Source of the DNA: Paramecium tetraurelia | Lineage: Eukaryota | Reading direction: 5' to 3' | DNA: 54,870 bases | Assembly: GCA_000165425.1 (NCBI GenBank) | Contig: CT867989.1 | Location: forward strand, 248,001 to 302,870 | Shown: positions 26,708 through 50,126 of the stretch, one piece after another | Numbering within the stretch: position 1 is the stretch's first letter | Layout: each line of letters begins with the position of its first letter | The notes under the pieces: model-generated | Database searches by the model: none | Told to the model about the DNA's origin: nothing | The model's input: only the letters and a program-made list of their open reading frames with translations | Program-made: the position numbers and the translations under genes

Positions 26708-29700
26708 TCAATCAATTTTGCTCGCTATCTTTTCATCCGCTTTCTACATTCTGGATTCAAAAATGTATTTTTTAATTTCATCTAACATAACTATTTCAAT
26801 AGCTTGTAATAATTTGTTTGAAAACAGTTTTTTGGATGTAGATTTGAAATTATCAATTTCTTTCGGGATGCTTTACATAGCCAATAATAGAATTTATTTC
26901 AAGATATCATTAAAATTTTGATTTTTCAAATATTAATTGAACACATTTAAGTATTGTGGTTTGAATGTTAAGCTATCATCCATGATCATTCCTTCCCTTT
27001 TCAGATAGTCAATAATATTTTTCACTAACTCATGTTATTCAAGTTTTTCGGCTTCTTTAAGTTGATGTTGTTATTAGTTAAATAAGTCTCTTTTCTAATT
27101 AAAGTCAACAATCATCTAATACTATAATTATATTATACCTAATTCATATGATCGATTTCCTATTATGATTTATTTCCTAATTTACATTAGTCTGATCGAG
27201 ACTTTACTTATTGTTAATAATTAGTTAGATTTTGAAGCTCATTTTACAATTATTCAAGTTTTGCATTATAATGTTGTTTGTATTCATTTTTTAATATCAT
27301 TTCTAATGGATCTTTGTATTTTGATTAAGCTCCTAATTCATTACATAGATTGTAAATAACAGGCCTCATGATACCTTGATAAAATTTATTCATAGATTAG
27401 GAATTTGAAATTTATAGTTAATTGCATGCATTTTGCACATTCATATTTTAAACATTAAAACTCTAACTTAGTAAAGCTTATATCATTTTATTTGTGATTG
27501 TTTTAAACACCTACTCTTAATCACACAATTTTTGGTAAAAATAATCAAGAAAGAAGGCAATTCTTTGGATTTCCTAATCTTTTTAATAATAATCTAACAT
27601 CTTAGTGGAGAAATAATTTAATTCATTGTTCATTGCCTCCTTATATTGGTTATAATCTTCAATATCATTTTTCACTTGCTTATACTTTTTATTTCCTTCT
27701 CTTAAACCGATTTCAATCACTTTTTTTTTAATTGAACCATTTTCAGAACCTTATTTACATTTAGCCATTGATAATTTTATATATTTTTATGCAAGTTAGC
27801 AAAAACACTTTTTAAAACCATCAACACTACCTTTACTCTCTTAAAAGGATTGACTTATGATTTCTAAAACACCAGAATCTAATTCGTTATAATTTTAAAA
27901 TAAATTCTCAAGTTCAGCATAGTTAGTAGCATTCTATACAAGTTTTATTACGTCTTATAAAGATTGATATTTCTATTCTACAGCTTATTATTCTAAATCA
28001 GTCAACCAAAAACCAGATTTTTTTAATCCTTCAATAGTAACTTCAGGGATTTTTTTCAAAAATTCAGTGATTCCAATTTTTTTTAATGTTTTCATAGAAG
28101 TTCCACCAAGTTGAAGAGCTTCCTTGATTCCTACAGGTCCTGCCAAAGCTAATGAAGCTGCAATATTAATAACTTTTTATTATCCCCAAGTTCCCCAATC
28201 AATTTTTATTCCTTTCCATGCTGATTGAACGGCAAGCAACATGTCAGCGATACCTTCACTTATTAAGGCTTACCCTATAGGCAAAGCAGCCCCAGCTGTG
28301 AATGCACATATTGCACATCCAACTACAAACTAACACAACCCAATGGCAAACATTGCTATATATTCAAAAAAACTTTTTTCTTTTTTCTTTTTATTCAGAC
28401 TACCAAGTTTAGGTAACGGTCCGTCGTCAATCACTTCTTACTAATCTTTTATAGATTGTTCTAAATCACCATTTTCTTTTTCATCCTTCATAATCACTGG
28501 TATCCAACTTAAATCAAGTACTTCATCATTAGGATTGAAGGTTTTCAAAGTGTTTAGAATAGAGTCGATGTTTTGAATTACTTTATTATACACTTTTAAA
28601 TGATTATTAATCTTACTCTCAATAGTATCTTTTTATACATTATTTTACTTGATAAATTCAATAGCTGATACATTAGTTATTTCTGAATCTTTTGTTAAGT
28701 CTAAGTCGGGTAATTCTAGATTTTATTTAGGAACCTTAATTTCGGACTATTAAAAATCAGGCAAATTTTAATTATCTTAAAACTATTCTACTTAAATCCT
28801 GTTCAACTTAGAAGCAGTTGCAAATCCTTTTTCATCATTAATCTTAGTGAGAAATAAAGATTTTGCTTTTTCCAATGTTTAAATAGCTTCTTTACTGCTC
28901 CCATGTTATATTTCACTTAAACCTTTGTAATATTATACCTAAGGATCGTTTTCAGATATTTCAGCTGCCTTTTAAAATGTCTTTAAATCGTCCTTTTACA
29001 GTCCTTGATATACCAAATATTTTGGATTTTATCCTTCATCAGAATTCAACCAATTTTCAATTTCATCTTCATTTAATCCAGTCTCTTGAAATTGTTCCAA
29101 ATAAAGACCCCATTTCTCTTCTAAAATTTAAAAGGCGGCCCTATTTTCGTTTATTTTTACTTTGCTCTTTGCTAATTAACAAAACTTTTTAAAACATTTG
29201 TCCTCATTTAATAATTTTTTCATTTCTAATTCTATTTCGTTTGAATAGTATTATTCACTTAGATCTCTAAAGAATGTAAGGACTTCTAAATAATTTTTGC
29301 TTTATTTTTTCTAACTTGTTGAATAATAATCCAAGGCATCCTAAATCGTTTTGAGTTAAGTGAGACCTCCAACAAATAAATTTTCAGGGAAACTTACAAT
29401 TAGTTCTGCAGTACCCAATTTACCTTACCTTGCTGTTCTACCAAATCCTTGAAGTTAAATTCTTATATTTCGAGGTAGAAAAGACATTATGACATGAAGA
29501 CCACCATTCTTTTCTAATTCTTCATTAGTTGTTAAATCGGTCCCCCTTCCGGCCAAGTTTGTGGCAATGATAACAGATTTAGGTCCAATTACCTTCTTTA
29601 ATTCCTATTGATCATCTGTATAAGTGATAGATTATATTTTATATTTTTTTAGATAAACATCTATTTTTTAAACATCCTAAATTGTTTGATTAATTATAAG

Positions 29701-32592
29701 CACAGCCCTCCCTGAATTCAATTGTTATTATACCGATTTTTAAATTTCTTAATACCACTCATCTTTACTAAGAGTTGCAATACCTGGTTAGATTTTCAAA
29801 AGTCTTTTCTTAAATGGTGGCATGAAAACAAAATCGAGTGTGTACGATTTGGCTAAAAGATTCTAAGTAACTTATGATCCTAAGGTGCCAGTAAGGCCTA
29901 GAAGTTGATTCTGATACCTTTTAAAGAAGCCAACATTAGATAAGTAGTTAGTACTGATTCTTAAAGGAGTGATTGGAAGATTGTGTTTTAATTAAATAAA
30001 TTAATGAAGTCCTTTCTGCCATTACATATTATCCTTATGCACTACTCCAGTATTTTGAAAATCAATAATTCTAACATTATTATTGTCGATTAAATAATGC
30101 TTGCTCTCTTGAAAATGAAATTTAGCTAAAATTGCGTTTTCAATCCAGGTTTTTTTCATAAATTTGATATAGTTTATTCGAAATTTTGGTATAAAATTGT
30201 ACACGACTTGTTTAAGTTAAAGATCTAAGGTTTTTTCAACGTATTCATCTAAATCAGTAGTATAATATTCGTTTTCATTCATAATCATAACTTTTTTATC
30301 AGTTGAGAGATTGGGCAGTGATTTACAAATTTCATCCCAAATCAATCGAAGAACTTTTGTTAGATCCAGCATTCCAGGAATGGGTGTGCTTAATAGTGTC
30401 TTATTACTATTGCCATCTATAAGCATAGAGTCTACTTCATCAACTATTATATATCCCTATTATCTACTTCCCATAGTTCCTAATTCTGAATATTCATGTC
30501 TTAGTATGTCAGCTTAGAAACTATGAGGATCTCCATAGATAACTTGAGATTCATAACATGGAAACATCTTTAGTTTCTAATTTTAGGATCCATTAATATT
30601 ATGAGCAACCGATATAGAAAATAATTTATAAAACGAGGCTAATTCTTGTGCATCCCTAATAGCCAAAACTGGAGAACTAGTTACAATGTCCACATTAACT
30701 TTTTTCTTTTTACACAACAGAATTGCAAGCATAGCTACTATTAAGGTTTTACCTTCTCCAGTAAATATTTAGGCTAAGCGACCTTGGTTATTCTCATGAC
30801 TATATAGTTCTACAACAGATAATAATTAAACTGGTCTTGGATAGTAGGAGAAATGCTTTTTAACTTTTGTACATAACAAGTATAGATCTTGGTATTCCAA
30901 TTATGGAGATTTATTAAAATCAAGATTTGCTGTATCAATTTATTGATTCTAAAAAGAGCTGTATATTTTAATGAATAAATTTTAAATTTCTAAATTATTT
31001 CTCCTGTTTAGCTATTGAAATTCGGCAAAGAGTTGCTCAATTTGTTATTTTTCATACAGCATATTATCTGATTATTATTTAGTAATGTTTTCTTAAGTGC
31101 GCTTTTAAGCTAAAATCTTACTTTCTCCTTCAAAAATTTTTAGTAGCTAAACAAACTCTTCAAATGATTCAAATTCACAATTTAAGACATTTTCTATAAT
31201 ATCAATGTTATAAACAGATTATTAAATATATTAAATAATACTATTTATTTCCTTATTACTATTAATTCTTTACTTCAAGTAGTTTCTTATCTTCATCAAT
31301 TATTATTGGTTTGTTTGTTATTGTTATTGATTGAAATTTTATAGGTTTAATTGTTATTGATTTAATTATTATTGATTTTATTGTTATTGATTCAATTATT
31401 ATTGTTATTTAATCTAATCTTTTTATCCTTCTTGGACTTTAAGCTAGTTTTCCCTTTGAACCCATTTTAATAATTTTTCCCAATCTGGATTCTCAATCAA
31501 AATAAAATTAATAATTGCCTCAGAACTCTAAAATTACTAGATTTATTGATATAAAAAGGATTATTATTCTTCAGAGAAATTTAATGAACACAAAATGGAA
31601 TAGAAGCTTTCATTTTCTAGATCTGACCAATTTTTATTTTCTTTCTCACCTTACATAAAAAAAATAATATATGTCAAACTAATGATATTCTAACTTTCAA
31701 TTAATTCTGGAATCCAAATTCTATTAGAATTTATTTTGTTAATCTTTATTAAGATTTGATTAACGCAAGTAAGAAAATCTCAGATATTCTGAGGTCTTTG
31801 AGATATCTTTAGTAGCTAACAAACAGAATGACTGATTCTTCTAGAAATTTAAGAATATTCTTATTTCTATACTATATATCTATAATTCTATTACTAATTA
31901 ATGAGAATTTATGAAAGTAATTTCAATTACAAATAAATTATCAGATAAATGGCAAAAATCATTTTTATTCCTATTGCTCGTAAGTTAAAAATTTAAGAAT
32001 ATTGAAATTAGGAATACTGTTGAAGTATTTTCCAATATTAAATTTCTAAAGTAATTTGAGAGAAAAAAAGAAACTGATTTGTCATTATTTTACTTTATGT
32101 TCTTAAAATTAAAAGATGCTCACATCCTGACAAGAGGAATGAAAATCTTTCAGAAAATGATTCAACCATTTTAAATGTTTCTTAGATCTTATAAGTAATA
32201 AATTTTAGAATTGCATTCTGAATTTGATTTAATTATTCGTTTACATGTATCTAATGGAAATACTTTTATGAGTTTAAAAGGAACTACAAATTATTATACA
32301 TATGAAAATATTCTAGAATTTTATATATTGATCAACAGAGTGGTTAAAATCTTTAGATTGCTAAACATTTAATCTAGCAAAATTCACATTTATAAACTCT
32401 TAATTTATTAAAGTCTGATTTAAATTCAATAGAGATGGATACATTAAAATCATTCTCTCATCTTTTATATAAACATAGACTGGTATTAATTCATTAATGT
32501 CACTTCTTAAGAATTTAATATAATTAAAAAATTTATAATAAATTTAACAGATTAATTAATCTTAAAAATATTATTTAAACATCAATATTCAT
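26708..32592 (-). CDS. Giant (~1,950 aa) SecA-like DEAD ATPase with TPR and hydrophobic C-terminal segments
   Basis: [85 protein letters not shown]. One 23-nt intron near 27120 makes the span a multiple of 3. The start codon is less certain. Confidence 0.85.
31296..31412 (-). repeat. Degenerate ~15-nt tandem repeat encoding a Gln/Asn-rich linker
   Basis: Repeated ttgttattga(tt) on the + strand; encodes QQLNQQQQNQQQLNQQQLN largely with TAA/CAA codons. Confidence 0.75.
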
Positions 32593-32807
32593 TATAATTT
32601 AAAAATGTTCTGGTTTTCTTAAATTACCAAATAAATATCTTCTTAAAACATTTGATTCCACATTCTTCTTTATATTAAGTATAGAAACAATCAGGAATCT
32701 GGAGGAAGCAATCAATAATAAATTTGGATAGTAGTCATTTCATATCCCTTAATTATCTTTTTTGTGACACAAATATAAAAAAAATACTGCTTGTTAAATT
32801 GACATAT

Positions 32808-33330
32808 TCATTTTTATATACCAATGAACAATTCAAATTTGATGTTCTCTTTCAGATTTGTTTCCTCTGGATACACCTCAAAATCATAATCATGTGATCT
32901 AGCTCCACCAAAATCTTAAGGGGTTAAATTTTGGTAATGATTACCAAGCGTCAATCACAACTTTGGGAATAGGACCTGGTCCACAATCCAAACGGCAGAA
33001 ATGATGAGCAGGTACTGTTACAGCTACTAATCCTTCTGGTAAATCAGTGACTTCACTCACCACTTCTCCTAAGACCATTTTGTATCTGATTTCCTCTTGG
33101 TTTTCAGGGTTTTAGTAATCATAATACATACAATAAGTTCTTTTAGGATGTATACGATGTGGAATTAATTCATGGACCTATTTATCAAAATATTCCTCAT
33201 ATGCCTTTCCAATTTATCCTGTTTTTGGATCTTATTCTTCTTTTTAGATGATATTCCGCATCAAGCCAACTAGAGTGAATGTTTATAATTCAACAACTGT
33301 TCTATTTGGTATTTATGCTTATGGATCCAT
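32808..33330 (-). CDS. GyrI-like / AraC effector-binding (Cass2-type) small-molecule-binding protein, intronless, with a +1 frameshift
   Basis: VVELQTFTLVGL...GQIGKAYEEYF...IPHRIHPKRTYCMYYDY...GEVVSEVTDLPEGLVAVTVPAHHFCRLDCGPGPIPKVVIDAWQ [shift] DFGGARSHDYDFEVY...FELFIGYKK; the span is 523 nt (3n+1). Confidence 0.8.
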
Positions 33331-33744: not shown

Positions 33745-33894
33745 NNNNNNNNNNNNNNNNNNNNNNNNNNNNNNNNNNNNNNNNNNNNNNNNNNNNNNNN
33801 NNNNNNNNNNNNNNNNNNNNNNNNNNNNNNNNNNNNNNNNNNNNNNNNNNNNNNNNNNNNNNNNNNNNNNNNNNNNNNNNNNNNNNNNNNNNNN
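33745..33894. other. Assembly gap (150 N)
   Basis: Run of N. Confidence 1.
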
Positions 33895-42655: not shown

Positions 42656-45600
42656 ATGATTTCTTTTAAGGTAACATTGTTACTTTTCCTGTTTTGCATT
42701 TAGACGAAAGGGATTGATTTATGTAATGAGTATGAAAGATTTGAAAGTTGTGTTTAGAGTGATAGTAATAAATGCAAATGGGATGGAATTAGGAAGCTTT
42801 GTGAAAGAACTTTTGATTTTTAATAAGGGTGCAGTCTCAGTTTGAATAGGAAAGCTTGCATTAGACAAATTGGGAATGTAATTGGTTAACCAGCTAAATG
42901 TATAACAACTATTCTAAATTAGGTCGCTTTTTATCAGTATGTGAAGACATACCCAATTTAGAAACAGAGAGATGTGAAAACAATCTCTCAAAGTCTGGGT
43001 GCATCTCAATTGCTAATCCAGAACATATTTGCTATTGGAAAGACAATAGTTGTCATGTACTACCTCGAAATCAATGGTATTAAGTTAAAGAGGACTTTGA
43101 TTAAGTTTAATATAGTGTTTCAGCTTGTTCATAAATTGAGAAATATTTAATTATTCATAGTAATCTGTTATGGGATTTGATATCTTATACTCCAGATTTA
43201 TTCACAGAAGCAAACAATTCATTCAAAAAGGAAATGGGTTTAGAAGTTACTGATGATATCATATTTGATGATCCAAACACGGTTTCTTTACAAAATAACT
43301 ATCAATTCTCGAATGGCTCATTTGCTTGGTATACAATTAGGGAGTCTAAGGAAATCACTTTAACAAATTGTAATATATGGTTTTGATAATCGTAGTATAG
43401 AAATCCTATAGATATAGGTATGGATGCGTAGCTATTGAGATAGAAAACGATAATGATTACTTCAATCTTATCACAATTACAGATGAGCAGAGAGGGGTAA
43501 ATCACTTATATTGCAAATATTTGAGTAGAAATCCAAACATTGCAGATGACTATGTATTTTCTGATGGAGTATGTAAGAAATTTAGCAATCTTGACTTAAA
43601 TGACATTTAAAAAACAGTCAAGTTGAATTTAAGTTGTAAATCACTGGACTACTATTAGTGTATTTATTTTGATTCAATCTCTTATACATGCAGATTAAAG
43701 GGATTAAATTATGAATATCCTTGTGTGGTTTAAGAAGATGATTATGTGGCTGATTGTGAAAATGCTTTTTGCACTGTTAAATAATGTTCAAAGTTAACAT
43801 TTCATTATTTGGACACGGATACAAACAAATGTAGTGATAGTTGTTCGTAATTCCCTCTAAATAGTTAGAGTGCATGTGAGGCAGTAAAAGGATGTAAGTT
43901 TTTAGGGACGAGTTAAAGGATTATGGAGAAGAGTTGTTCTCCTAATGATGGGTGTGATCATTTAGGCATTGAGAAGATGTATTGTATATTTTTAAAGGAT
44001 CAATGTGGATGGGATGAATTATAATAACGATGTTATAGAATAAAGGATGAAGAGTTCAAATTGATGAGATGCAGTTAAGCCTTTAATGCCTAATCTTGCG
44101 TTCTCATCACTTTAAGCGACTAAATATGCTTTTGGAATTCCATAATACTCTAGTGTTAAAATGTATTAGAATAGCCAATTCTTATATATTAAACATCTTT
44201 AATGGATTTATAACGTGTTAATCCTTTTCTTTTAATTTTAACGTAAGTAAGTAATGAAAACTTTTGCAAATATCAATAATCATTTCCAAGTGAATATATT
44301 CCAAGTGAAGGAAAGTGCAACCTCATTTAATCATAAATTTAATCAAAAGATATTACACATATCAACATGAATGCATGTCTTTAATTTTATCCTGGATTAA
44401 AAAGGTGGGATTCTTTAACTCAACAATGTATAAACCTTTTAGAAGTAGAAATTAAAGAGCTTGATTGTAATACTTAAGTATTTGTTAATAATTAAGTATG
44501 TCAGAAATCTAAGGTGGTATTACCTGGTTATCAATGTGTTTATGATCGATAAAGTCATTCTTGTAAAGAATTAGAATCTACACAAATTCAATCTTTTGGA
44601 TGTGTTGGATATGGTTTTAGAAAAGAGGTTTGTTTATCTCTAAATGGACCGAGAGTTTATTGTAAATTTTCAGCAGGAATCTGTCAAGAAATTACTGAGA
44701 GTGAGATTAACTCAGTTCGTTGTTCATCCCTATAAAATGTGAACTCACAAGTGTGTAAATTATACACCTAATCATAAACTGTTTGTTTGTATGATAAATC
44801 CATTAAATCTTGTTACACTCCTAGTGTTTATGTTAAAATAACCTATTAATCAGATATAAATCGATATGGTTGCCAATAAGTCTAAGACACCTTAACTTAT
44901 TTCGACTTAGTTAAAAATGAATGCATTTCATTTAGTGAAGATGAGGATATTTTGTTGTCTAACTTGGAATGTGCATAAAATTATATTAATCAAAAGACAT
45001 GTTTGTTAATTACTAAAAGTGGTTAAAATTGTTTTTGGGATACAGTTGAAAATAAATGTAAAAATTATTCGGGTAATTTTTCTAATTGTGGAGATCAGGA
45101 TCAATTTACAAGCAGGATTTGCTAGGCCATTGTATAAAATGTGTAAAAATAATTAATAAATGATAATTATTGTACTTATTTTGATAACAAATGCCAAACC
45201 AAATCTACTACTCTATCAGATTGTGGAGAATCTGAAAAAATGAATGTACTTAGATGCAGTGGATTAACTGGATTAAATCAAGCTGGAGAATACATTTAAA
45301 TGTGTGCATTTATTGACTTCAAATGTACTTCATTAATAGATGATTCTATGGATGCTTTTATAGTTCTGAACCAGATATCGTGCTCTTAGGCCAACTTGAA
45401 AGCCTGTTCAAAAGTATAAACTTATGGAAAATATTGTTAAGTGATTGACTATGTTTCTAACAATTATTTCATAATCGATAAGAAATGCGTATAGGTTGAT
45501 AATAATAATCAATCATGTTAAATCATTAATACTAATTTCCAGAAAGATTAAATAAATCCCAATCATTGCATAAGAGCAAATGACAGTTGTTACTATGATT

Positions 45601-48600
45601 AATCCATCGGATGCTAATCACCAATTAATGATGATTTGGAATGTGACACTCCAGGATTATCATATTCCGGTTGTATTCTAAACACAAACAATCATAGATG
45701 TGCATTTTATAATTCTAAATGCCAATATTTTCCAACATATTCAACTATTTCAAATTGCAAATATCTAAATTAACTAGCTTGTTCCAATTATCAATTTAAA
45801 GACTGTTATTGGAATGGTTCAATGTGTGATGTTTCTTATGATTATGGTAGTGATTACTCTTGTATTTTGAATTAGAGTAATCTATTTATTGTTTCAAATG
45901 GTTCCACGTGTATTTATGAAGAATAAGAATCAAATTACTAATTGTACACATGTGATAGCAAATTAAATTAATTTGGTTGTGGATCAATCCCAAATTAATA
46001 TTGTTAATTTATTTAAAACTAATGCTAATTTTATTCCACCACTTAATGTGAAGATTCAGGAACATCATGTAGCTTAAATAACTCATTAAATCTGAAATGC
46101 GTTCTCAAAGATGGTAAATGTTTTCATTTTCCATACAATCATCACTAATGTGATTTCTTTGATGAAACTAATTATGAATTCTGTCTCCAATATCCTGATT
46201 GTGTTTATGTAGATTAAAAATGTTAATAAATTTATTAAAATAGATCTTATTGGTATTGTTATTATTTAACCCAACTTGAATGTCTTATACAAAATAAACA
46301 ATATTCATGTACATGGGAAAATGAACAATGTATTGAATTTGAAGGTTCAGCTTGTCCATCTCTTGACGGATTTCATTCATATGACGCTTGCTCAAAGTTT
46401 AACAACTGTTATTATGGATATACTAAAAGTGGCTTGGGTTTTTGTTATTAAGATGCAAACTTTGAATCACTAACATGTGAACAGTTAGATTAAATCTTCT
46501 GTCTTGATGATATGACTCATCTAAATTCTTCACTTATGTGTTATTGGGACTAATCATGCAAAAACATAAATAACACAGAAGAAATGTAATGTGAAGATCT
46601 ATAAAACTTTTAGTCAAGTTATCCAGCTTGTGCATCTTTAAATTAGGAACTCTGCATGTACTCATTTGTAGATAAGAAATGCAAGCTTATATAAGAGTAT
46701 GTTTCAATAACAATTTGCTAAGGAACAACATCAAAATAATGCTCATAAATAAAAAACACTTGTTACTTTAATAAGTCTAAATGCTAAACAAAAGGAATAC
46801 CAGAACAATTAAATAAATATGGATGTATTACTTAATCTGGATCTTGGAAATTCACCTATTTCACTTGTTATAAATTAACTAATGAAATGCAATCAAGTTG
46901 CATCAATCTGTCAAAGGAGGCTTGTTTGGGTGATCTCACAAAGGAAATAAGTTGCCAATGGATAAACCAAAAATGTATAAATTTGTTTTAGGATTAAAAT
47001 AAAAAACTATTGTCATGTCAAAATCTGAATCAAAGGGCTTGCTTAAATGTCAGTCTATCAAATATCTTATGTATTTGGAATGAAACAATTAAAATTTGTG
47101 ATTCCCTTAATATAAGCAACACTGATTGTAGTCTTAACAATTTAGATCCCCTAATGTCTGTTAGTGTATGTGCTAGTTCAACAACTAAAAGCTGTGTGAG
47201 GCATTATGATAAAACCAAATGTACAGAAATCAAAGTGAAATTGGATGGCTGCAATCTCTTTGGATTGAATAAATAGGCTTGTATATCATTAACAAAAGCA
47301 CCTTGCTCTTGGATTTAAGTTGGGGATGGAGGATATTGCAATGATGTTAACATATATACAACGTTATGCGAGGACTTTGTAAATTAATCGGCTTGTCTAA
47401 ACATCTAAACATAAGGATAAGTTTGCAAATGGGAAGAATCAACTTAATAATGCATCAATTACAAATTCACATCTTGTGAATCTGCCAATAACGAACATTC
47501 CATCATGGCTTGTAAAGGTGTTACCGAAGAAGCATGTTATTATGATCCCTGGCAGAAGTCATGCAATCAAATCTTGTCAACTCCAAATATTTGTTCAAGT
47601 AATTTCAATTCTCGGGCTTGTATACTGTCTATAGAAGTCTGCGTATGGCAATCAAATAGATGTTACAACAATCCAAATTTAAATTGCCTAAATTACAATA
47701 CAAAAATTAAATGTCTTCAAAGCAATGCATAAAATTGTCAATGGCTTGATAATAAATGTCAATAGTTTCAACCTCTTGTAATAAAAGTTTATTGCTACGA
47801 ATTACCAACAAATATTAATAATTTTGCTTGCATGAATAACTCAATAGATCCCTGTTGTTTTGATTCAAATTTTATGTAATGCTATGCAGACTAAAGTAAC
47901 AAAATTGCAAAAATTTATGAATGGTCAACAATAACTACTATTCTAGCATTTCAATAACCTGGTTAAGAATCCTCCATCTTAAATGGTAAATGTGAAGAAC
48001 TTAAAAATCCAAATTACTGTTTAAAATCACGTATTCCAAATATATCATGTATTTGGAATGATTCTTGTTAAGAGGTCACTTAATTTGATAATTTATCTTG
48101 TTAAGACTCTCTCAACATCTGGGGATGTTTGAATATAACTAATGAAAATTAGTTTTGTTTCTGGAAAGATTAAAAGTGTTTAAATTGGAATACTTCTCTA
48201 GGTATTATGGAAAATGTTAATAAAAATGTCTGTATTTAATATAGCATAAATAGCATTTATGAATTAAATTCTTGCGTTGAGAAATCAATTGAATCAATAT
48301 AATGCACATCTGATGGAATAAGTAAAGCAACATGTTTATCCATTCCAAATAAATAATGCAAATGGATCACATCTTGTATTGATTTTACTTAAACTACTGA
48401 AACAAAATGTCATGATTATACAAATGTAACATATTATGTTTGTTAAATGACTGATTTGGCTTGCAATTATGATTAAGAATAACATAATTGTATTGAAATT
48501 TCAAAAGAAATTATTGGATTTGGAGTCTCAAAATCAAGCTGTGTATCAAATAAGAATATTTCCACGTTTTGGAATAGTAACGGTTGTTAAGAACTGTATG

Positions 48601-50126
48601 ATTTTATTGATTGTGATACTTCATTAGTTGTCAATGAATTAGCATGTCGTAAAAATGTAAAAAATACAGCATGCCTTTATGACTCAATTTCTAATCGTTG
48701 TAAGAGCAACTTCAACAGATAGTCATTACAATGTAAGACTTTAGGATTAAATCTACTGGGTTGCATACAGGTTTAGCAAGAACCTTGTATTTTTAAGGAT
48801 AACAAATGCTAGGTATTTACAGGAACGTCATAAATTTGTATGTTTATTAATCTAGTGAATTCCAAAGCCTGTGCATCAGTCATCAATTAATAATGCTCCT
48901 ATGACTCAATCAATTTCAAATGTTAATCTCCATTAATCAATGAGAATTATTGTAATGTTTCAGGAGTCAATAGAGATGCTTGTGAAACTAATACACTTTG
49001 TATGTGGAGTCAAGACGACTTAGATTGTAAGTGCAATTCAGATCAGAAAATTGATACTTGCCAATTCTCGAATATTACATAATGCAGGTCTAATAGTAAA
49101 TGTTATTTCGATCTTGATATTTACAAGTGTATTAAGAAGTAATGTTATCATCTAAAGGAAGTTGAATGTGCTGCAATCATGGATAATAAGACTTGTTACT
49201 TAAGTTAAAATAATAGTTGTCAACCAGCAACTAAATGCGAGGATATTATTGATTCAAAACAATCATGTTCAACTATTTACATTGATTTATAACCTTGTGT
49301 TTAGGCAGGTGCTTCCTGTATATCAATTAACAATTATAGCAGTTATTGTTCGTATTCAGATTGTTCAAATTCTAATTGTATTTTTAAATATGGGGCATGT
49401 AAATTGAAGACGTGTGATGATTACACTGCCCAAGAATGCCAATTAGTTTAAGGTTGCTATTTAGATTAGGAAAAAACATGCCAATAATTACTTGTATGTA
49501 GTCAAATTACTTAAGAGATCTATGGAGATCAAGTCACGTATATTTGTAACAAGTCATACGTTAATGGTCTTATATGTAATTGGTAGAGATACTCCTTGTT
49601 AGATGATACTGAAGTATGCACCAATCAGTATTGCGAGTAATTTATTATTATTTATTGTAGAATCTATGGGTCATCAACTACACTTTGTTAAGGGAATGAA
49701 ATCAATGGATATTCATGTGTGTTATTTAATTAATTAGTTTGCAAGTAATGTGAATATATAACAGAACCATGCTTTTGCGATTAATAAAAAAATGTTTGTT
49801 TCTATCAAAATGGCAAATGCAATTCTATTCTGTGTTCTAATTATTTAACTAAAGATACATGTTCCTAAGTCTCGGATCGTTGTTATTGGAGCACTTCAAC
49901 TGAAAATAATTCACAAATTAGTCTTTGCTTAAAGTCATGCGAAAAAATCATGGATGCTATTGAATGCAACAGTAGATCTAATGAATGTTATTTTGAAACT
50001 TCTAAGGGATTATGCGTAAAAGGTTAAAAATAAATACCAAATTTGAGTTCTGAAATTGTAATAGAGGAATTTTATGCCATTATCATACAAGGGTATATTT
50101 TTGTATTTTTGATTATTTTTATCTGA
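42656..50126 (+). CDS. Giant cysteine-rich surface protein (~2,460 aa), probably GPI-anchored
   Basis: Signal peptide; dozens of CxW/CxY Cys-periodic modules; terminal hydrophobic tail FYAIIIQGYIFVFLIIFI-TGA with no cytosolic tail; three short introns. Confidence 0.88.

What the first reader, a model, noticed from the sequence alone, without database searches (positions are those of the whole stretch)
26708..32592. Giant SecA-like ATPase in a plastid-less ciliate
All SecA motor motifs are intact ([47 protein letters not shown]). Canonical SecA needs bacterial or plastid SecYEG, which this host should lack, and this protein is about twice normal SecA length. Order: unknown N-domain, polyQ linker, SecA motor, TPR ([38 protein letters not shown]), hydrophobic hairpin, helical tail. 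SecA-like genes are annotated in some eukaryotes but I know of no established function. Inference: a repurposed polypeptide-threading motor for defence, toxin delivery or membrane insertion.
Basis: partly seen in the sequence, partly recalled or inferred. Interest (0 to 1): 0.72.

Follow-up and report, generated by a model that had tools for sequence, protein, structure and literature searches.

The report
Toxin-type protein carrying its own motor
This Paramecium gene encodes a bacterial-style protein-pushing motor (SecA) fused to a membrane-inserting hairpin; in bacterial symbionts and their phages the same design ends in swappable toxins with antidote genes, which suggests a toxin family that carries its own motor and has been taken up by eukaryotes.

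Summary
The gene is real but shorter than reported: minus strand 31656-26708, one 23-nt intron, 1641 aa, weakly expressed and spliced; 31657-32592 is not part of it. All ATPase motifs are intact and the predicted fold follows SecA through motor, clamp, scaffold and a finger-like helix pair, without the wing. It belongs to the giant 'eukaryotic SecA' clade reported in 2013 with no known function. New here: the motor is tied to a conserved hydrophobic hairpin (83 of 83 long hairpin proteins carry the motor), followed in most relatives by a shared stalk and a highly variable tip (nucleases, ADP-ribosyltransferases, amidase, OTU). Two phage-borne copies, 96% identical, have swapped tips and different abutting genes; one is a WHH nuclease with a SUKH immunity gene and an orphan cassette. 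That is a polymorphic toxin system with a built-in SecA motor, found mainly in bacteria living inside eukaryotic cells. The Paramecium copy keeps motor and hairpin under purifying selection but has an unrelated helical tail and no toxin tip. Best reading: a domesticated, self-inserting ATP-driven translocase used against bacteria; its role in Paramecium is inferred, not shown.

The parts
26708..31656 (-). Whole gene, 1641 aa (exon 1 31656-27139, exon 2 27115-26708)
   Evidence: Spliced CDS equals P0002; RNA on the minus strand
27116..27138 (-). 23-nt GT-AG intron
   Evidence: 23 letters left out at 27116 in one contig of run X3; paralogue L009 has an in-frame 24-nt insert at the same place relative to its annotated protein
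30907..31656 (-). N-terminal region, residues 1-250, Paramecium-specific, no signal peptide; polyQ at 31291-31416
   Evidence: 0 of 106 non-Paramecium homologues match; no hydrophobic stretch before residue 297; dN/dS 0.43-0.48
29377..30906 (-). SecA motor: NBD1 with inserted preprotein-binding clamp (PPXD) and NBD2, residues 251-760
   Evidence: Pfam; hhalign to E. coli SecA 503 columns, E 6.9e-49; dN/dS 0.13-0.16
29038..29376 (-). Scaffold helix and short two-helix-finger-like pair, wing domain absent, residues 761-873
   Evidence: Model aligns to 6itc_A up to chain residue 769, Z 35.8, rmsd 3.4, 561 aligned; no sequence match to SecA here
28774..29025 (-). TPR-like helices, residues 878-961
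   Evidence: Model helices; Pfam TPR hits at the same position in relatives
28384..28629 (-). Long helix and beta-hairpin preceding the membrane segment, residues 1010-1091, after a disordered linker
   Evidence: Model; conserved part of alignment A3
28102..28383 (-). Basic patch and Gly/Ala-rich hydrophobic helical hairpin, residues 1092-1185; family hallmark
   Evidence: 86 of 106 distant homologues; 1279 representatives at E<=1e-3; dN/dS 0.21-0.32
26711..28101 (-). All-helical tail, residues 1186-1641, Paramecium-specific, no toxin tip
   Evidence: No match to the family stalk, none among shorter proteins, no clear fold match; dN/dS 0.39-0.56
31657..32592 (.).

Best explanation
The protein is a eukaryote-domesticated member of a polymorphic toxin family that carries its own SecA motor. 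Proposed cycle: the protein is made in the cytosol (no signal peptide); its basic patch and hydrophobic hairpin insert into a target membrane and supply, probably as an oligomer, the conduit that SecY supplies to ordinary SecA; the motor burns cytosolic ATP, grips its own downstream chain with the clamp and finger and pushes the C-terminal passenger through. In symbiont and phage relatives the passenger ends in an exchangeable toxin and the next gene gives immunity. In Paramecium the passenger is a tip-less helical domain, so the output is most likely membrane insertion or damage at a bacterium-containing vacuole or an intracellular bacterium (cell-autonomous defence). Shown: gene, expression, intact motor residues, purifying selection, motor-hairpin coupling, toxin tips, tip swap with immunity gene in relatives, distribution. 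Inferred: ATPase activity, pore formation, cis-threading, direction of transport, antibacterial role. My odds: family is a SecA-bearing polymorphic toxin system 0.8; this protein is an active self-inserting motor 0.55; defence role 0.4.
For: Catalytic residues kept in this protein and in 74-76 of 77 family rows for K303, D406, E407, D409, D414, R704, R732, R740, R743. 83 of 83 hairpin-module proteins with >=900 aa upstream have the motor. After the hairpin, tails share about 450-500 aa (mean about 30 BLAST partners) and then diverge (1.7-5 partners in the last 150 aa); 101 tips fall into 58 clusters. Toxin-type C-terminal Pfam domains in 11 of 106 homologues and 7 of 42 further proteins. L094/L095: 96% DNA identity, last 160 aa 22% and 14% identical, L095 tip WHH nuclease (E 7.7e-17) followed by SMI1/KNR4 (E 3.7e-23), an orphan cassette 69% identical to toxin residues 3340-3399 and DUF6980, then 99% synteny resumes. 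Strong hairpin hits (E<=1e-10, training genomes removed) in 20 of 693 Rickettsiales, Legionellales and Chlamydiota genomes against 0 of 752 Rhodobacterales, Burkholderiales and Flavobacteriales; 5 of 301 Cytophagales, all with 0.9-1.2 Mb genomes. Best PDB sequence matches of the hairpin are pore-forming hairpins AopB, MakA and NheB, though none is significant (E 0.059-0.33).
Against: The Paramecium tail does not match the family stalk (scores below shuffles), has no toxin tip, no clear fold match and shows no abrupt tip swap between 8 Paramecium pairs. None of the 30 named non-Paramecium eukaryotic homologues has a nuclease, ART or amidase tip in the precomputed Pfam column; two rotifer proteins give only weak OTU hits (E 6e-4, 2e-3). 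Only 1 of 8 abutting small genes has a recognised immunity family. Hairpin likeness to pore formers is below significance and Gly-rich hairpins resemble each other by composition. The distribution contrast may reflect shared habitat and gene exchange, not ATP need. Expression in the three raw-read runs is very low (43-96 reads over 9 kb) and no infection data were seen.
Confidence: 0.45

Rival explanations
1. Self-export through the producer's own Sec channel: the motor docks on Sec61 (SecY in bacteria), the hairpin is an internal signal anchor, and the tail is pushed out and displayed on the cell surface or in a lumen, like a contact-dependent toxin or surface antigen.
For: Sec61alpha is present; clamp, scaffold and finger-like helices are kept; motor-anchor-passenger order is that of SecA fused to its preprotein; self-secretion was proposed for SecA-bearing giant bacterial proteins.
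Against: Wing lost and finger tip variable in length and sequence; the hairpin module is conserved far beyond an ordinary signal anchor; this route would work in any bacterium, yet strong hits cluster in intracellular lineages.
Confidence: 0.25
2. Membrane-anchored unfoldase or insertase acting in trans on other Paramecium proteins (housekeeping or organelle biogenesis); the tail is a client-binding or scaffold domain.
For: Orthologues in five Paramecium species and several paralogues; no toxin tip; all regions under purifying selection.
Against: Patchy spread with eukaryote and symbiont sequences intermixed; very low expression; tail and N-terminus evolve about three times faster than the motor; relatives are toxin-tipped.
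Confidence: 0.15
3. A nucleic-acid helicase or sensor of the SF2 type that only resembles SecA.
For: Pfam DEAD and Helicase_C hits; DEAD-box and RIG-I structures match at Z 23-25.
Against: The 22 best fold matches are all SecA (Z 27.6-36.3) and include the peptide clamp; Foldseek E 5e-27 for SecA against 2e-7 for the best helicase.
Confidence: 0.06
4. A decaying horizontally acquired remnant with no present function.
For: Low expression; loss of the toxin tip; one degenerate paralogue in the genome (L013).
Against: Intact catalytic residues, motor dN/dS 0.13-0.16 at dS above 1, spliced transcript, full-length orthologues in other species.
Confidence: 0.07

Closest known systems
Eukaryotic-type secA genes (Wolbachia wBol1_1091/1092, wHa; insects, Daphnia, Tetrahymena, Polysphondylium, Amoebophilus) - Duplouy et al. 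2013, PMC3639933; phage WO module, PMC5062602
   Same: Same clade by description: giant proteins, SecA domain far from bacterial SecA, exchanged between eukaryotes and symbionts. A Wolbachia member (L030) carries the hairpin.
   Different: The passages read describe transfer and, in PMC5062602, a 'secretion' category only; no hairpin, stalk, variable toxin tip or immunity gene is mentioned there.
Canonical SecA (E. coli, B. subtilis)
   Same: NBD1, PPXD, NBD2, scaffold and finger-like helices; catalytic and gate residues.
   Different: No wing, finger tip not conserved, no SecB/zinc tail, fused TPR, hairpin and passenger, no SecYEG in the host, separate long branch.
Polymorphic toxin systems (Rhs, CdiA, LXG; Zhang et al. 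2012, PMC3482391)
   Same: Constant delivery part, variable C-terminal toxin, adjacent immunity gene, orphan cassette, shown in relatives L094/L095.
   Different: The delivery part holds an ATP motor and a membrane hairpin; this Paramecium member lacks tip and immunity gene.
SecA-bearing giant proteins of Actinobacteria and Omnitrophota (PMC8195603; 10.1101/2023.11.21.568195) and Amoebophilus effectors with SecA-like domains (PMC3482391)
   Same: SecA motor without wing inside a giant protein with membrane segments; self-secretion proposed.
   Different: Different architectures as written there (WXG, HTH arrays, MFS, glycosyltransferases; tens of thousands of residues); relation to this clade not tested here.
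Hydrophobic-hairpin pore formers and translocators (AopB/SseC, MakA/NheB, pre-toxin TM domains PT-TG, DUF4225)
   Same: Gly/Ala-rich hairpin; weak profile and feature matches.
   Different: No match is significant; none carries a motor.

Membership tests
Canonical SecA translocase | DEAD motor with catalytic, gate and arginine-finger residues | tested here: met
   equivalents of E. coli Q87, K108, D209, E210, D217, R509, R566, R574, R577 (their roles are recalled, not from a call)
Canonical SecA translocase | Preprotein cross-linking domain inserted in NBD1 | tested here: met
   PF01043 E 3.4e-6; fold alignment
Canonical SecA translocase | Scaffold helix and two-helix finger | tested here: inconclusive
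   Fold alignment reaches B. subtilis residue 769, but no sequence match and the tip is variable
Canonical SecA translocase | Helical wing domain / Pfam SecA_SW | tested here: not met
   No SecA_SW hit at E<=1; only 6 residues between scaffold helix and next helix in the model
Canonical SecA translocase | Bacterial or plastid SecYEG partner in the same cell | tested here: not met
   8 of 9 SecY-family loci examined are Sec61alpha-like (36-100% to L098); E. coli SecY hits none
Giant eukaryote/symbiont SecA-like clade | Groups with eukaryotic and symbiont giant SecA proteins, apart from bacterial SecA | tested here: met
   Trees (42-row clade, SH-aLRT 99, quick search)
Giant eukaryote/symbiont SecA-like clade | Conserved hairpin module downstream of the motor | tested here: met
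Giant eukaryote/symbiont SecA-like clade | Shared stalk after the hairpin | tested here: not met
   0 of 13 Paramecium tails hit the stalk profile, which hits 165 of 191 tails (144 of them trained it)
Polymorphic toxin system | Variable C-terminal toxin domain on a constant delivery part (relatives) | tested here: met
Polymorphic toxin system | Cognate immunity gene and orphan cassettes (relatives) | tested here: met
   L095 SUKH plus orphan cassette; one clear case; L018 and L038 show only partial repeats
Polymorphic toxin system | Toxin tip and immunity gene in this Paramecium gene | tested here: not met
   No tip domain; no tip swap among Paramecium pairs; neighbours scanned are ordinary genes or have no Pfam hit
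Polymorphic toxin system | Toxicity neutralised by the immunity protein | not testable with these tools
   Needs a bench test
Hairpin pore formers / T3SS translocators | Significant sequence or fold match | tested here: inconclusive
   E 0.059-0.33; atlas 0.83-0.86
Hairpin pore formers / T3SS translocators | Oligomeric pore in membranes | not testable with these tools
   No complex prediction was obtained

The most novel reading that the evidence does not exclude
A self-powered injection device in one polypeptide: released into the ATP-rich cytosol of a eukaryotic cell, it inserts its own hairpin channel into a neighbouring bacterium or vacuole and uses its SecA motor to thread its own C-terminal cargo through, needing neither SecY nor a secretion needle. 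Intracellular bacteria use it against each other, and ciliates, rotifers, insects and fungi have repeatedly taken it up as a cell-autonomous immune weapon; the Paramecium version has replaced the cargo with a membrane-acting helical domain.
Probability: 0.3. Interest if true: 0.9.

Novelty: new variant of a known kind. Interest (0 to 1): 0.75.

Why it matters
Giant SecA-like genes are scattered through protists, rotifers, arthropods, fungi and their symbionts and have had no function since they were noticed in 2013. Reading them as polymorphic toxins with a built-in motor makes that question testable, adds a possible motor-driven delivery route to the known toxin entry routes, tests whether SecA can work without SecY, and offers a candidate for bacteria-derived innate immunity in a genetically tractable ciliate.

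Tried and rejected
N-terminal extension to 32592: rejected. Sequence-level match of the post-motor helices to SecA scaffold/finger: none; only the fold supports it. Paramecium tail as the family stalk: no match; tail among shorter proteins: 0 of 5840 candidates; fold searches of the tail model gave no Foldseek hit at E<=0.001 and only generic helical hairpins at Z<=9.7, which does not exclude a relative. Family stalk against PDB and Pfam: nothing coherent. The apparent break in paralogue L010 is an assembly gap. L018 and L038 repeats are not clean orphan cassettes. Ciliate sequences as one clade: rejected, p-AU 3.6e-5, but the group was named after the first tree was seen. The sister relation of the Paramecium clade to OTU-tipped P0018/P0020 did not hold in the second tree. 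No RNA holder was on record in the run list; the lay gave the evidence. A homo-oligomer prediction of the hairpin was not obtained, so pore formation is untested. Three look-ups of earlier scan findings returned nothing. Paper search was too loose and gave nothing relevant; PMC8163844 and PMC3113570 mention SecA only in unrelated contexts.
Full report
1. The gene. The window is ciliate DNA (TAA and TAG read as Gln). The protein database holds the identical protein, P0002, 1641 aa, which its source names as Paramecium tetraurelia. It maps to 31656-27139 and 27115-26708, with a 23-nt intron between. The intron is left out in one contig of run X3, which covers 26827-31636; three oligo-dT runs give sparse reads (95, 96 and 43 over 9 kb) oriented as a minus-strand transcript. 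The stretch 31657-32592 is not part of the gene: 13 of 13 aligned Paramecium homologues begin at the Met of 31656 (P0012 left out as truncated), similarity to the C336 paralogue ends 12 nt upstream, and 31821-32422 has no RNA depth, no paralogue, no Pfam hit and no favoured coding frame.

2. Anatomy. Residues 251-760 are a SecA motor with its peptide clamp. The catalytic and gate residues of E. coli SecA have counterparts here and in nearly all of 77 family rows (their roles are recalled). An AlphaFold model of residues 250-1230 (36 sequences, pLDDT 79) matches SecA best: 6itc_A at Z 35.8, rmsd 3.4 over 561 residues, up to chain residue 769, against Z 25.1 at most for DEAD-box helicases. So the scaffold helix and a finger-like helix pair are present in the fold, although no sequence match shows them. 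The wing is gone and the finger tip varies between members. Then come TPR-like helices, a disordered linker, a helix with a beta-hairpin, a basic patch, a Gly/Ala-rich hydrophobic hairpin, and a 455-aa all-helical tail. There is no N-terminal hydrophobic signal. Against own-genome paralogues dN/dS is 0.13-0.16 in the motor, 0.21-0.32 in the hairpin module, 0.39-0.56 in the tail and 0.43-0.48 in the N-terminus (dS 0.9-1.6, so rough). The genome has three close paralogues, one distant 3000-aa member with a hairpin (L012) and one degenerate motor (L013). Its SecY-family loci are Sec61alpha-like (8 of 9 examined).

3. The family. 6307 of 7999 scored candidates match the motor; the best 120 are 14 Paramecium proteins and 106 others from Tetrahymena, bdelloid rotifers, arthropods, a hemichordate, Gigaspora, Rickettsiales, Cytophagales and unnamed metagenomes. 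The hairpin module is found in 86 of these 106; many of the 20 misses end soon after the motor. A profile of the module hits 1279 representatives; among the best 150, 83 of 83 with at least 900 residues upstream carry the motor, and 14 of 67 shorter ones. Motor and hairpin therefore travel together. After the hairpin most members share a stalk of about 450-500 aa and then diverge sharply; 101 tips fall into 58 clusters, and rotifer tips fall into several. Recognised C-terminal domains are OTU, Scabin-like ADP-ribosyltransferase, RES, LHH, Tae4 amidase, Ntox50, Ntox17 and Endonuclea_NS_2 in 11 of 106, and AHH, WHH, lipase, OTU and Endonuclea_NS_2 in 7 of 42 further proteins, the shorter ones of the 150.

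4. Polymorphic toxin hallmarks. Two IMG/VR contigs, L094 and L095, near a terminase gene and grouping with Rickettsia and Tisiphia proteins, encode 3557- and 3555-aa members 96% identical in DNA, whose last 160 residues are unrelated. L095 ends in a WHH nuclease, followed at once by a SMI1/KNR4 (SUKH) gene, an orphan ORF 69% identical to toxin residues 3340-3399 and a DUF6980 gene. L094 has a different small gene; then synteny resumes at 99%. SUKH proteins are described as immunity proteins of nuclease toxins (PMC3113570, title and abstract start). P0090/P0265 and P0060/P0071 show similar abrupt tip changes among 19 non-Paramecium pairs printed (partial proteins can mimic this). 8 of 19 bacterial or phage loci with a downstream ORF have a same-strand gene of 144-383 aa abutting the stop, but only one is of a recognised immunity family.

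5. Distribution. With hits at E<=1e-10: Rickettsiales 18 of 301, Legionellales 6 of 198, Chlamydiota 2 of 200, Cytophagales 5 of 301 (all 0.9-1.2 Mb genomes), Flavobacteriales 1 of 251 (the centre genome), Rhodobacterales 0 of 251, Burkholderiales 0 of 251 (groups are named from the record titles of the centre loci; weaker hits in 1, 1, 5, 1, 1, 0 and 1 further genomes were dropped). Removing the genomes that trained the profile (matched by ORF length) and the Flavobacteriales centre leaves 20 of 693 against 0 of 752 (Fisher p 4e-7; relatedness not corrected). Eukaryotic and symbiont sequences are intermixed in two quick trees, apart from E. coli SecA; this genome's two types do not form one clade. 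The direction of transfer is not settled.

6. How it most likely works. The order motor, hydrophobic anchor, passenger is that of SecA fused to its own substrate. A motor acting from outside a target needs ATP outside the target, which the eukaryotic cytosol offers; this fits a family limited to eukaryotes and the bacteria inside them (inference). I therefore favour: hairpin inserts and forms the conduit, motor threads the C-terminal passenger. The hairpin's best PDB matches are all pore-forming hairpins (AopB, MakA, NheB) but below significance; atlas hits to PT-TG, DUF4225 and SseC are leads only. The Paramecium copy departs from the family: its tail has the length of the stalk but no match to it, no tip, no homologue among shorter proteins and no clear fold match (modelled on paralogue L009, pTM 0.45). 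It works like the delivery half of such a toxin but fails membership as a toxin-immunity system itself. Defence by membrane insertion is my best guess for its role (overall 0.45); self-export via Sec61 (0.25) and a trans-acting unfoldase (0.15) remain open.

7. What is known. PMC3639933 (passages) reported the eukaryotic secA clade, including Tetrahymena, and transfers to Wolbachia and Amoebophilus, with no function. PMC5062602 and PMC9203015 (passages) list these genes in the phage WO eukaryotic association module. PMC3482391 (one passage, first 300,000 characters held; its held supplement has 1,214 characters and no hit) notes SecA-like domains in Amoebophilus effectors. PMC8195603 (passages and supplement hits; one file not searched, one cut) and 10.1101/2023.11.21.568195 (passages) describe SecA domains without wing in giant actinobacterial and Omnitrophota proteins and propose self-secretion. 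PMC4256840 (passage) lists a Legionella SecA DEAD-like protein; PMC11077975 (passages) describes rickettsial C-terminal toxin/antidote modules, with no helicase mention. In ten searches of the open library I found no description of the motor-hairpin-stalk-tip design with immunity genes, and no study of the Paramecium gene. Subscription papers and unseen supplements (Zhang 2012 full tables, Duplouy 2013 files, bioRxiv supplements) may hold it.

8. Verdict. Real, expressed, conserved gene; known sequence clade; new and well-supported reading of that clade as motor-bearing polymorphic toxins; role of this tip-less copy inferred. Interest 0.75.

Noticed in passing
L048, L051, L066, L079 (and about 35 similar loci among L039-L093): A separate 620-700-aa motor-only SecA paralogue in Planctomycetes, Rhodobacteraceae, Burkholderiales and Gammaproteobacteria sits in operons with HlyD-type adaptors (some GAF-fused), an M50 peptidase-HlyD fusion, an outer-membrane efflux protein and, in L048, a large adhesin: looks like a type-I-like secretion system driven by SecA.
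   Followed up: partly
L012:1-9201 (G000:C591): Second, distantly related family member in the same genome, over 3000 aa with a long N-terminal extension; groups with Tetrahymena thermophila, crustacean, rotifer and Legionellales proteins.
   Followed up: partly
L013:2394-5969 (G000:C91): Degenerate motor (motifs altered, clamp region largely missing) in one open frame with a C-terminal WD40 propeller.
   Followed up: no
L030:3-2795: In Wolbachia wCon a second, very divergent SecA-like ORF lies directly upstream of the giant gene, as in the wBol1 pair.
   Followed up: no
L018:13106-15368, L020:12854-13642: TPR genes abut the giant gene; in L018 the second TPR ORF ends in an 83% copy of the giant protein's last 72 residues.
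   Followed up: no
L027, L035: Family members in a Methanobrevibacter and a Stappiaceae MAG group with beetle and hemichordate proteins; possibly misbinned eukaryote or symbiont contigs.
   Followed up: no
window 43377-50126 (+): 2249-aa cysteine-rich repeat protein with a C-terminal hydrophobic end, like a ciliate surface antigen (recalled likeness); no Pfam hit.
   Followed up: no
window 31657-32900: Unexpressed AT-rich stretch with long TGA-free frames on both strands (328-aa plus-strand ORF 31911-32897) and an 87-nt 76% match on C9; probably not coding.
   Followed up: partly
window 33745-33894: 150-base run of N (assembly gap).
   Followed up: no
G000:C88, C369, C43 (L130-L132): Three divergent Sec61alpha paralogues (36-59% to the main type) beside six near-identical ones; candidates if the Sec61 rival is tested.
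   Followed up: partly
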